Below, one piece after another: positions 13,430 through 14,609 of a DNA stretch of 64,000 nucleotides. Position 1 is the stretch's first letter. Each line of letters begins with the position of its first letter. Made by a program: the position numbers and the translations under genes. Source of the DNA: a virus; IMG/VR virus record IMGVR_UViG_3300042896_000283, positions 1-64,000 of that record. One strand, written 5' to 3'. Below the pieces are notes generated by a model, which was not told where the DNA came from, did no database searches, and was given only the letters and a program-made list of their open reading frames with translations.

Positions 13430-13637
13430 TATTGTATAATCACTGGGGACTATAAGCGCCACACATCAGTTTAAATAGTCAATGTATGTTTGCGTATCAT
13501 TGAACTTACCTACATTATACATTTATGTTTTATATCAGTGTAGTCAGTTTTAAACTCACTAGAGTGATATAAAAGATAATGGTTGATCATTGGTCAACAA
13601 CACAACAATTGATACATGCCCTCACATGAGGGAAATT

Positions 13638-14023
13638 GGGGATGACAGGTTTTGACAGGTTAATACATTATTACAATCAGCACAGAGAGATAACTGTATA
13701 AAACTAAGGTGAAATTAAATAAATGACAACAAAGTAATTTCGTTAGATGTTAACCAGGTTAACGCTAACATGAGCAAAGTTTTCTCATTGATTAATTCTA
13801 ATGTTGAAGAGCTAGAAATGGCTGCATAGACATTAAATCTGTCAACACTGGCTAGACATAAAGATTGCCATAGAAGGTTTGTATGATTCCTTAAAAACAT
13901 TCTGGTGGATCTCAACTTCACAGTTGACCCTTCTAACGTAAAGAGTTTAAAGAAACGTAAAGCTGTATAAATTGTAATGATTTAAATTAATTTTGGACGG
14001 GGATTCAATTTCCCCCATCTCCA
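13638..14023 (+). ncRNA. ssrA: tmRNA
   Basis: Acceptor GGGGATG/CATCTCC-A with G3:U70; 5' GACAGGTTTTGAC; T-arm GGGGA-TTCAATT-TCCCC; tag frame 13725-13829 after ATAAAT ending MAA-stop. Confidence 0.92.
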
Positions 14024-14026
14024 CTA

Positions 14027-14170
14027 GATTGAGTGGCGGAATTGGTAGACGCTATAATGTTGGAAACTGATGTAACTGGAGAAGAGAAACTCATTAAAAG
14101 CCAGTAAACAAGCATTATGAAAGTGTGAAGTATAGTATCACTTATACAGGTTCGAATCCTGTCTCAATCA
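14027..14170 (+). ncRNA. tRNA-like RNA (Leu/Ser-type scaffold) with expanded anticodon domain
   Basis: GATTGAG/CTCAATC-A; D-arm GGCGGAATTGGTAGACGC; T-arm ACAGG-TTCGAAT-CCTGT; long variable arm; about 50 nt in place of the 7-nt anticodon loop. Confidence 0.8.
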
Positions 14171-14173
14171 CAA

Positions 14174-14263
14174 GATCTGAAGGTCATTCGAGCTAATGGC
14201 ACCTAATTAAAGGGAGAACCCTCATTGTTTAGGAGATTACAGGTGCAAATCCTGTTCAGATCA
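14174..14263 (+). ncRNA. tRNA-like RNA with 22-nt anticodon loop
   Basis: GATCTGA/TCAGATC-A; 6-bp D stem GTCATT/AATGGC; CCTAA/TTAGG stem; T-arm ACAGG-TGCAAAT-CCTGT. Confidence 0.75.
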
Positions 14264-14402
14264 CAGCGGTTGCTTGATGTCAAATATGTACAGCAACAAA
14301 CATTGGAGAAATTTGGCTTCTCATGAATGTTAAGTCCTATCCACACAGAGAAGGAGTTGAGTACTTTATGGTTTGGGTTCTACTAGTGCCAATCTCAACA
14401 AT

Positions 14403-14430
14403 AAGGCTATCAGAAATGATAGCCTTTTTT
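14403..14430 (+). terminator. Intrinsic terminator ending the ncRNA operon
   Basis: AAGGCTATCA-GAAA-TGATAGCC-TTTTTT. Confidence 0.85.
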
Positions 14431-14462
14431 ATTTTGTATTAATCCTTAATAACTATAAAAAC

Positions 14463-14609
14463 ATGAAAACAATTAAATTATTACCAACTGAGTTCTATCA
14501 GTTCAGAAAGTTAGCATTTGCAATGAGTATTGCATTTGCCTGCACAATTACACAGGGTGTGTATATTGTAGAAGCCAATATAGACCAACTTTCACAGTTG
14601 GGTTATTAA
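14463..14609 (+). CDS. Small hypothetical protein
   Basis: Start re-called at MKTIKLLP; followed by hairpin at about 14621-14646. Confidence 0.6.
   Translation: MKTIKLLPTEFYQFRKLAFAMSIAFACTITQGVYIVEANIDQLSQLGY

What the first reader, a model, noticed from the sequence alone, without database searches (positions are those of the whole stretch)
14174..14263. tRNA-shaped RNA 2: 6-bp D stem and 22-nt anticodon loop with an internal hairpin
It has a perfect acceptor stem and the same ACAGG/CCTGT T-stem as RNA 1, but no D-loop GG. Its loop TTAAAGGGAGAACCCTCATTGT contains AGGG/CCCT. Both RNAs carry a GAGAA..CTCATT element in the expanded loop, and GAGAA...CTCATG recurs near 14307-14326. Two differently built anticodon-less tRNAs in tandem argue for function rather than decay.
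Basis: partly seen in the sequence, partly recalled or inferred. Interest (0 to 1): 0.72.

Follow-up and report, generated by a model that had tools for sequence, protein, structure and literature searches.

The report
Anticodon-less tRNA-shaped phage RNA
A 90-base gene in the tmRNA operon of an uncultured phage (probably of Flavobacteria) encodes an RNA that folds like a tRNA but has a long hairpin where the anticodon should be. It is real and conserved, it belongs to the long-known but unexplained phage 'tRNA-like stable RNAs', and its function is still unknown.

Summary
Window 14174-14263 folds into a clean four-arm cloverleaf: a 7-bp acceptor stem, a 6-bp D stem without GG, and a 5-bp stem closing a 22-nt loop that zips into a roughly 12-bp arm. 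It also has a normal T arm and discriminator A (z = -3.1). It is not a decoding tRNA: Rfam scores it 22.9 bits against a cut-off of 29, and ARAGORN does not call it even with introns allowed. It lies in one operon: tmRNA, 3 nt, RNA1, 3 nt, RNA2, 3 nt, a conserved two-hairpin element, then a terminator. I found one homolog, in a second phage, 87/90 identical with the whole expanded arm unchanged, while flanking DNA is 72-75% identical. No ordinary-tRNA relative was found. Related phages carry 0-2 anticodon-less tRNA-shaped modules at this spot, with covarying T and D stems and bodies swapped between position-specific acceptor stems. These modules and true host and phage tRNA genes share the same 3' context (A, C, no CCA). 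The most likely reading is a tRNA-processed, stable, non-decoding RNA whose extended arm is the selected part. Its closest known relatives in kind are T5 RNA1/RNA2 and T4 rnaC/rnaD. This scan has found the same kind of RNA before on other DNA. The shared GGAGAA..CTCAT motif is only partly supported.

The parts
13638..14026 (+). Phage tmRNA. The discriminator A is at 14023, followed by the 3-nt trailer CTA. It is the first gene of the RNA operon.
   Evidence: Rfam RF00023 at 68.9 bits; ARAGORN tmRNA call.
14027..14170 (+). RNA1: a tRNA-Leu-framed module with a ~55-nt insert in the anticodon position. It starts 3 nt after the tmRNA discriminator.
   Evidence: Rfam tRNA at 37 bits with a 61-nt insertion. 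Its D arm is identical to that of Bacteroidota tRNA-Leu(CAA).
14171..14173 (+). 3-nt spacer CAA (C74 plus 2 nt) between RNA1 and RNA2.
   Evidence: True tRNA genes of host and phage have the same A-C-nn context.
14174..14263 (+). RNA2, the finding: a 90-nt cloverleaf ending in discriminator A.
   Evidence: Fold. Homolog L031:6415-6504 is 87/90 identical. Model R1 scores 116 bits on both copies.
14183..14200 (+). D arm: 6-bp stem and 6-nt loop without GG. Two of the three differences from the homolog lie in this loop.
14202..14233 (+). Extended arm in the anticodon position: 5 bp, a U/U mismatch, 3 bp, a CA bulge, 4 bp and an AGAA loop. It is 100% identical in the second phage.
14239..14255 (+). 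T arm: ACAGG/CCUGU stem and UGCAAAU loop. In the homolog the first stem pair A-U becomes G-U.
14264..14372 (+). Conserved downstream element: CAG followed by two hairpins (14269-14297 and about 14299-14331). In relatives it follows the last tRNA-like module, or the tmRNA directly.
   Evidence: blastn. RNAalifold finds 5 pairs with compensatory changes.
14403..14433 (+). Intrinsic terminator that closes the RNA operon.

Best explanation
RNA2 is a non-decoding, tRNA-shaped small RNA gene.

Proposed mechanism:
1. It is co-transcribed with the phage tmRNA and RNA1.
2. It is cut out by the host tRNA-maturation machinery. RNase P cuts at its 5' end, which also sets the 3' end of the RNA upstream. 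The 3' end is then trimmed and the CCA completed after the encoded A73-C74.
3. It accumulates as a stable L-shaped RNA.
4. The tRNA top half provides processing and stability. The ~12-bp extended arm capped by AGAA, which replaces the anticodon arm, is the part under selection. It most likely binds a protein or RNA partner that is not yet identified.

Shown here: the fold, the operon layout, the tRNA-gene-like 3' context, the conservation pattern and the cassette-like presence or absence.
Inferred: the processing, the stability and partner binding.
For: - Fold: the minimum-free-energy structure is a cloverleaf, z = -3.1.
- Layout: exact 3-nt spacing tmRNA/RNA1/RNA2/next element. In the second phage RNA2 starts 3 nt after the tmRNA discriminator.
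- 3' context: true tRNA genes of Bacteroidota and the phage's own tRNA-Met end the same way, with discriminator, C, and no CCA.
- Host dependence: the phage has no SmpB, RtcB or CCA-adding enzyme, so host enzymes must act.
- Conservation: the homolog is 87/90 identical and the 32-nt arm is invariant. Adjacent DNA is 72-75% identical and the genome mean is 79%. RNA2 lies in the top ~1% of 90-nt windows.
- Sister modules: T and D stems covary and acceptor stems are invariant. Bodies are 93% identical inside completely different acceptor stems. There are 0, 1 or 2 modules at the same site in close relatives.
- Precedent: T5 RNA1/RNA2 and T4 rnaC/rnaD are annotated stable RNAs. The T5 pair (annotated 'tRNA-like') and T4 rnaC fold with a tRNA-type T arm and an expanded middle; rnaD shows no such fold.
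Against: - There are no expression or end-mapping data.
- Only two copies exist, so RNA2 itself has almost no covariation. The single informative change is A-U to G-U in the T stem.
- No partner is identified. No antisense target beyond chance was found in the phage genome, and the loop has no look-alike in bacterial genomes.
- The lack of D-loop GG and the G at T-loop position 55 mean the standard elbow contacts cannot form as in a normal tRNA. RNase P recognition is therefore assumed, not shown.
- High identity between the two phages could reflect a recent transfer and not selection.
Confidence: 0.55

Rival explanations
1. RNA2 is only a processing signal, like a t-element or tRNA punctuation. 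It exists so that RNase P and 3' trimming enzymes release the tmRNA, RNA1 and the downstream hairpin RNA. The excised RNA2 has no function of its own.
For: - In three independent layouts a tRNA-like module starts exactly 3 nt after the tmRNA discriminator: the window, L002 and L031.
- Across sister modules the acceptor, T and D arms are conserved while the middle is hypervariable. This matches what RNase P needs.
- Plant mitochondrial t-elements are a precedent (PMC1920247, found).
Against: - In RNA2 the arm that RNase P does not need is the best conserved part: 32/32 nt identical, while the D loop changed at 2 positions.
- L013 and L055 have no module, and 69 of 96 related tmRNA loci had none under the strict scan, so tmRNA maturation does not require one.
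- Two modules in tandem are redundant for punctuation.
- Bodies are conserved when moved between acceptor sockets.
Confidence: 0.2
2. RNA2 is an acceptor-end mimic. After CCA addition it is recognised by an enzyme that reads the acceptor stem and A73. This could be an aminoacyl-tRNA synthetase, or a host tRNA-targeting defence toxin that modifies or cuts the 3' end. RNA2 would then act as a decoy, sponge or amino-acid carrier outside decoding.
For: - Acceptor sequences are invariant within each module class, although the T stems covary. This suggests sequence-specific reading of the acceptor.
- All modules have A73.
- The RNA2 acceptor stem plus A73 is identical to that of tRNA-Lys(UUU) in 3 of 251 Bacteroidota genomes sampled.
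- Acceptor-selective anti-phage toxins exist, for example FaRel2 (PMC11559606, found).
Against: - The tRNA-Lys match is to a minority acceptor variant and may be chance, since thousands of tRNAs were compared.
- This reading gives no reason for the extended arm to be invariant.
- No defence or counter-defence gene is linked to the locus.
- Nothing was tested biochemically.
Confidence: 0.12
3. RNA2 is a decaying tRNA gene, a relic of a former phage tRNA cluster, with an accidental insertion in the anticodon loop.
For: - Related phages such as L038 carry large arrays of true tRNAs at the same region.
- RNA2 is absent from most relatives.
- Its D and T loops are degenerate.
Against: - All 30 base pairs are intact.
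- The second copy is 96.7% identical with the insert unchanged, in a genome that is 79% identical overall.
- No insert-free version was found.
Confidence: 0.05
4. RNA2 is a true tRNA with a 15-nt intron after position 37. The loop begins UU-AAA-G, like a tRNA with anticodon AAA. The intron would be removed by an unknown splicing route.
For: - The first 6 nt of the loop fit the pattern Y-U-NNN-R.
Against: - Fifteen nt is far too short for a group I intron.
- Bacteria lack the bulge-helix-bulge endonuclease, and the phage has no RtcB.
- ARAGORN with introns allowed does not call it, and the Rfam tRNA score is below threshold.
- Sister modules of one acceptor class show no shared anticodon stem or loop.
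Confidence: 0.03

Closest known systems
Phage T5 RNA1 and RNA2 (NC_005859 30501-30644 and 32959-33083, annotated 'tRNA-like stable RNA with unknown functions')
   Same: They are encoded among the tRNA and stable-RNA genes of a virulent phage. They have an acceptor stem, D arm and normal T arm, with a much enlarged arm where the anticodon arm should be. No function is known.
   Different: There is no detectable sequence similarity to RNA2. T5 RNA1 uses a tRNA-Leu frame with a variable arm, like window RNA1 and unlike RNA2. The T5 RNAs are 125-144 nt. They are not next to a tmRNA. Their stability was shown experimentally; RNA2's has not been.
Phage T4 rnaC and rnaD (species 1 and species 2 RNA; NC_000866 70908-71046 and 71053-71171)
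   Same: They are small stable RNAs at the end of the phage tRNA cluster. rnaC carries a canonical T arm next to its 3' end. Their function has been unknown for decades (my own knowledge).
   Different: They are not cloverleaf-shaped overall, are longer, show no homology and have no tmRNA context.
The tRNA-Leu-framed anticodon-less modules flanking tmRNA in the same phage group (window RNA1 and relatives; acceptor classes GATTGAG, AGTCAGG and TCCAGAG)
   Same: Same slot in the tmRNA operon, same T stem, A73 followed by C, a 7-bp acceptor stem, no usable anticodon loop, and cassette-like presence or absence.
   Different: RNA2 has a different acceptor stem, AG instead of UG at positions 8-9, a 6-bp D stem without the Leu-type GG loop, a short variable region and a T loop with G at position 55. 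The RNA2 model scores these modules at 31.6 bits or less, against 116 bits for itself.
tRNA-like processing elements: plant mitochondrial t-elements (PMC1920247) and mascRNA at the MALAT1 3' end (PMC8457004)
   Same: These are tRNA-shaped, non-decoding structures embedded in longer transcripts. RNase P or RNase Z cutting at them defines the ends of neighbouring RNAs. The proposed processing of RNA2 works the same way.
   Different: They come from eukaryotic organelle or nuclear systems, are unrelated in sequence, and have no enlarged conserved anticodon-position arm.
Bacterial Y RNA YrlA (tRNA-mimicking module bound by Ro60/Rsr; PMC4201824)
   Same: It is a tRNA-like T/D/acceptor module joined to a long helix that binds a protein. 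It is also found in phages.
   Different: The topology is permuted: YrlA's ends lie in the long helix and its acceptor stem is closed. There was no Rfam match. No TROVE/Ro60 gene is nearby, and the adjacent 463-aa protein has no Pfam hit.

Membership tests
Canonical tRNA (Rfam RF00005) | Score at or above the curated gathering threshold of 29 bits | tested here: not met
   22.9 bits, and only when the 108-nt stretch is searched alone, with the 5' half misaligned. Not reported in the whole-window or 1-kb searches.
Canonical tRNA (Rfam RF00005) | 7-nt anticodon loop on a 5-bp stem | tested here: not met
   The loop is 22 nt and zips into an extended helix. ARAGORN makes no call.
Canonical tRNA (Rfam RF00005) | D-loop G18-G19 and T-loop T-Psi-C for the elbow contacts | tested here: not met
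   The D loop (14189-14194) has no GG, and the T loop has G at position 55.
Canonical tRNA (Rfam RF00005) | 7-bp acceptor stem, discriminator base, 5-bp T stem with a 7-nt loop | tested here: met
Intron-containing tRNA | A recognisable intron type (group I core or bulge-helix-bulge) and intron-less homologs | tested here: not met
   The surplus is only 15 nt. ARAGORN with introns allowed does not call it. There are no homologs with a 7-nt loop in IMG/VR. The phage has no RtcB.
Phage tRNA-like stable RNAs (T5 RNA1/RNA2, T4 rnaC/rnaD) | Encoded in the tRNA/stable-RNA cluster of a phage, with a tRNA-type acceptor stem and T arm and a non-decoding enlarged middle | tested here: met
   Annotations and folds of the T5/T4 RNAs compared with RNA2 and its operon. 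rnaD itself shows no tRNA-type fold.
Phage tRNA-like stable RNAs (T5 RNA1/RNA2, T4 rnaC/rnaD) | Accumulates as a stable processed RNA during infection | not testable with these tools
   No transcript data are available for this uncultured phage.
Phage tRNA-like stable RNAs (T5 RNA1/RNA2, T4 rnaC/rnaD) | Sequence homology to the T4/T5 RNAs | tested here: not met
   blastn of 13600-14450 against 50,697 GenBank phage records matched only the tmRNA part, and only in Flavobacterium and Cellulophaga phages. The class is defined by architecture, not by descent.
Leu-framed anticodon-less modules of this phage group | tRNA-Leu-type D arm (GG-containing loop, 3-4-bp stem) | tested here: not met
   tabulates the D arms; RNA2 differs. 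Model R1 scores these modules at 31.6 bits or less.
Leu-framed anticodon-less modules of this phage group | Position in the tmRNA operon, A73 followed by C, and a canonical T stem | tested here: met
tmRNA (standard, two-piece or permuted) | tRNA-like domain plus a tag reading frame and pseudoknots | tested here: not met
   There is no tmRNA-family Rfam hit on RNA2, and a 90-nt cloverleaf has no room for a tag frame.

The most novel reading that the evidence does not exclude
Phages of this group may run a cassette system of tRNA-scaffolded small RNAs around their tmRNA gene. Position-specific acceptor stems would act as 'sockets' for processing. Interchangeable RNA bodies would be the functional cargo, for example binders or decoys aimed at host factors or defences, exchanged between phages by recombination in the conserved D and T arms. 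RNA2, with its invariant extended arm, would be one such body. That would make these RNAs a natural counterpart of the engineered tRNA scaffold and a new class of phage effector RNAs.
Probability: 0.2. Interest if true: 0.8.

Novelty: new member of a known kind. Interest (0 to 1): 0.5.

Why it matters
Phage 'tRNA-like stable RNAs' have been known from T4 and T5 for about forty years, and no function has been assigned. RNA2 and its neighbours show three things:
- Such RNAs are common next to phage tmRNA genes.
- They are gained, lost and recombined as cassettes.
- In at least this case, the non-tRNA arm is the part selection preserves.

This gives a concrete experimental handle: a 32-nt invariant arm on a small scaffold that can probably be purified. 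It may help answer what these RNAs do, whether that is ordinary transcript punctuation or a host-directed effector role.

Tried and rejected
1. **More RNA2 homologs.** Exact and degenerate pattern scans of IMG/VR found only L031. One scan of JGI metagenomes found only two unrelated true tRNAs that share the T arm and acceptor stem. blastn against GenBank phages found none. blastn and a covariance model over 147 related tmRNA loci found only generic tRNA-likeness at 31.6 bits or less.
2. **Host look-alike of the loop** (a mimic of a host RNA or CRISPR repeat). The 19-mer scan of 185,579 genomes gave two chance hits inside coding regions. blastn of RNA1+RNA2 against 401 Bacteroidota genomes matched only the RNA1 D arm (tRNA-Leu) and T arm (tRNA-Arg). 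It matched none of the RNA2 body apart from one weak hit. A remembered Cas13b repeat could not be verified in the literature, so I dropped that lead.
3. **Antisense target in the phage genome.** The longest complementary match is 10 nt, below the shuffled median of 11.
4. **Intron reading.** Rejected, as set out in the membership test.
5. **Link to the upstream MoxR-like ATPase and 463-aa protein, as a Ro60/Y-RNA-type pair.** The 463-aa protein has no Pfam hit, including TROVE, and there are no Y-RNA Rfam hits.
6. **Calibration against the phage's true tRNA-Met.** Not possible, because that gene is absent from the second phage.
7. **The first complementarity script timed out** and was rewritten.

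Genome G182, flagged as unpublished, supports no claim in this report.

Full report
**Setting**

The window is the first 64 kb of a 113,094-bp IMG/VR virus record with direct terminal repeats and 31% G+C. The closest GenBank matches are Flavobacterium and Cellulophaga phages, and they match only the tmRNA part. The RNA1 D arm is identical to that of Bacteroidota tRNA-Leu(CAA). The host is therefore probably a member of the Flavobacteriia; this is an inference. The whole genome has one canonical tRNA (tRNA-Met, complement of 105668-105742) and one tmRNA.

**The observation**

One search gives the sequence. One search shows that window 14174-14263 folds, without any constraint, into a four-arm cloverleaf. 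Its energy is -28.2 kcal/mol, against -18.8 +/- 3.0 for shuffles (z = -3.1). The arms are:
- Acceptor stem: 7 bp (14174-14180 with 14256-14262), with discriminator A at 14263.
- D stem: 6 bp including one G-U, with a 6-nt loop lacking GG.
- Anticodon-position stem: 5 bp, closing a 22-nt loop.
- Variable region: 5 nt.
- T arm: the same ACAGG/CCUGU stem as RNA1, but a T loop with G at position 55.

The 22-nt loop is not open. It continues the stem through a U/U mismatch, 3 bp, a CA bulge and 4 bp to an AGAA loop. The whole arm (14202-14233) is a helix of about 12 bp.

**Not a decoding tRNA**

- ARAGORN does not call it, with or without introns allowed.
- Rfam's tRNA model does not report it in the window or 1-kb searches. 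It reaches 22.9 bits (cut-off 29) only when the stretch is searched alone, and then with a misaligned 5' half.
- No other Rfam family matches meaningfully.

**Operon context**

The order is: tmRNA (13638 to discriminator 14023), CTA, RNA1 (14027-14170), CAA, RNA2, CAG, a conserved element (14264-14372) and an intrinsic terminator (14403-14426 plus a T run).

The 3-nt spacers are not a peculiarity of this locus. True tRNA genes of sampled Bacteroidota and the phage's own tRNA-Met also end with discriminator, C, then non-CA bases. RNA2 therefore has the 3' context of a genuine tRNA gene of this system, in which CCA is completed after transcription. The phage encodes no SmpB, RtcB or CCA-adding enzyme, so processing must use host enzymes. 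That step is inferred.

**Homologs of RNA2**

Only one was found. In IMG/VR contig 3300032291_001296 (L031, genome G001), RNA2 sits directly after a different subtype of tmRNA, again after CAA, and is followed at once by a terminator.

The two copies are 87/90 identical. Two differences lie in the D loop, and one turns the first T-stem pair from A-U into G-U. The 32-nt extended arm is identical.

The surrounding DNA is much less conserved:
- Coding DNA of the two phages near the locus is 72-75% identical.
- The genome-wide length-weighted mean over 51 kb of alignment is 79%.
- The RNA2 window lies in the top ~1% of all 90-nt windows. It is not unique; a few windows elsewhere reach 98-100%.

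Other searches found no further copies:
- Further IMG/VR patterns, JGI metagenomes, GTDB genomes, 401 Bacteroidota genomes and GenBank phages.
- A search for the RNA2 anticodon-position stem with any loop of 7-30 nt. It returned only chance hits, mostly inside genes, plus one unrelated tRNA.

It is not met.

**The wider family**

Using the neighbouring 463-aa protein and a tmRNA motif, I collected 147 related loci. A structural scan looked for a 7-bp acceptor stem, a T arm with a T-loop consensus, and any middle. It found many tRNA-shaped modules without a usable anticodon loop, 68-147 nt long.

- *Frame.* Most are built on a tRNA-Leu-type D arm.
- *Acceptor classes.* They fall into acceptor classes tied to position: AGTCAGG upstream of the tmRNA, GATTGAG downstream, and TCCAGAG several kb upstream.
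- *Conservation.* Within a class the acceptor stem is invariant. All modules have A73 followed by C. T and D stems show compensatory changes, which argues for selection on the tRNA-like fold.
- *Middles.* They are hypervariable. Even so, the same body occurs at 93% identity inside two completely different acceptor stems (50/54 and 76/82 nt). Bodies are therefore exchanged as units.
- *Number per site.* Close relatives have none (L013 and L055, where the tmRNA is followed directly by CAG plus the downstream element), one (L003, L002/L004, L037, L127) or two (this window).
- *Frequency.* With my strict criteria, 27 of 96 tmRNA loci with enough flank carry at least one module. This is a lower bound, and some contigs are counted twice.

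RNA2 occupies the same slot but is a class of its own. It has a different acceptor stem, D arm and T loop, and the RNA2 model scores the others at 31.6 bits or less.

**The motif claim**

GGAGAA-N(1-12)-CTCAT is enriched in this window: 4 matches against 0.40 expected, with three of them in the operon. However:
- The copy at 14305-14324 is the interior of the second hairpin of the downstream element. In relatives this helix covaries and reads differently.
- Only 4 of 36 distinct modules have the motif.
- In a class II tRNA frame, the same letters form the variable-arm hairpin in module L014.

I read it as a recurrent small GAG/CUC hairpin, not as a demonstrated shared functional site.

**Mechanism**

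The best-supported reading is a tRNA-processed, stable, non-decoding RNA.
- RNase P cutting at 14173/14174 would free RNA2 and also set the 3' end of RNA1. In L031 it would set the 3' end of the tmRNA.
- The top half gives processing and stability.
- The invariant extended arm is the selected, presumably partner-binding part.

Pure punctuation explains the general conservation pattern of the sister modules. It does not explain the invariance of the RNA2 arm, the tandem arrangement, or the dispensability of modules in relatives. An acceptor-end decoy or charged-carrier role is possible. Acceptor stems are invariant, and the RNA2 acceptor stem equals that of a tRNA-Lys(UUU) variant in 3 of 251 genomes, which may be chance. 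I consider decay and intron readings unlikely. No antisense target or host look-alike was found, so the partner remains unknown.

**Comparison with the known**

- T5 RNA1 and RNA2 are annotated 'tRNA-like stable RNA with unknown functions'.
- T4 rnaC and rnaD are annotated 'small, stable RNA'.
- The T5 RNAs fold with an acceptor stem, D arm, canonical T arm and a much enlarged anticodon-position arm. T5 RNA1 even uses the Leu-type D arm. rnaC carries a canonical T arm near its 3' end; rnaD shows no tRNA-type fold.

RNA2 is thus a new, sequence-unrelated member of a known but unexplained kind. Earlier notes of this scan describe the same kind in many other phage genomes, and one describes what appears to be the L031 copy. 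I used them as leads and checked the T4/T5 lead and the L031 copy myself. The literature searches turned up no description of these tmRNA-associated modules.

**Verdict**

RNA2 is real, conserved and functional-looking, and it is not a tRNA. Its function is unknown. The finding is moderately interesting in itself. The cassette behaviour of the surrounding family is the more novel aspect.

Noticed in passing
L002:6334-7050 (relative; also L108): The tmRNA gene of two related phages is interrupted in its T loop by a group I intron (Rfam Intron_gpI, 94.8 bits). The intron carries a 162-aa ORF on the opposite strand. The window's own tmRNA is uninterrupted.
   Followed up: partly
window 14264-14372: A conserved ~105-nt element with two hairpins lies after the last tRNA-like module. 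Five pairs show compensatory changes across 10 relatives. In phages without modules it follows the tmRNA directly. It may be a further small RNA or a processing or stability element. Rfam has no match for it.
   Followed up: partly
L002:7067-7135 vs L018:4305-4373; L025:7579-7674 vs L023:1235-1331: The same module body (93% identical) sits inside two entirely different 7-bp acceptor stems. One position is upstream and one downstream of the tmRNA. Bodies are therefore exchanged between position-specific acceptor stems.
   Followed up: partly
G000 105668-105742 (outside the window) vs G001:85830-86049: The phage's only canonical tRNA (tRNA-Met) is missing from the otherwise collinear second phage. 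The flanks there are adjacent and 81-83% identical, so this tRNA is itself an insertion or deletion.
   Followed up: no
L257-L265 (Bacteroidota genomes) and G000 105668: True tRNA genes of the sampled hosts and of the phage encode the discriminator plus C74 but not CCA. This is the same 3' context as the tmRNA, RNA1 and RNA2.
   Followed up: partly
G016:C1:909829-909901, G073:C90:19117-19189, G216:C164:4252-4324: tRNA-Lys(UUU) of three of 251 sampled Bacteroidota genomes has exactly the acceptor stem and discriminator of RNA2. The rest of the molecule is unrelated. This may be chance.
   Followed up: no
window 14464-14609: A small ORF (about 48 aa from the ATG at 14464) immediately follows the RNA operon. 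It is conserved at the same place in many related loci, whether or not tRNA-like modules are present. The 78-aa frame 14373-14609 that contains it gave no Pfam or PHROG match.
   Followed up: no
L062:2804-2888 and 9 further loci: Another anticodon-less tRNA-shaped class (acceptor AATCGGT, 83-85 nt, discriminator C) lies just upstream of the tmRNA in a different subgroup of these phages.
   Followed up: no
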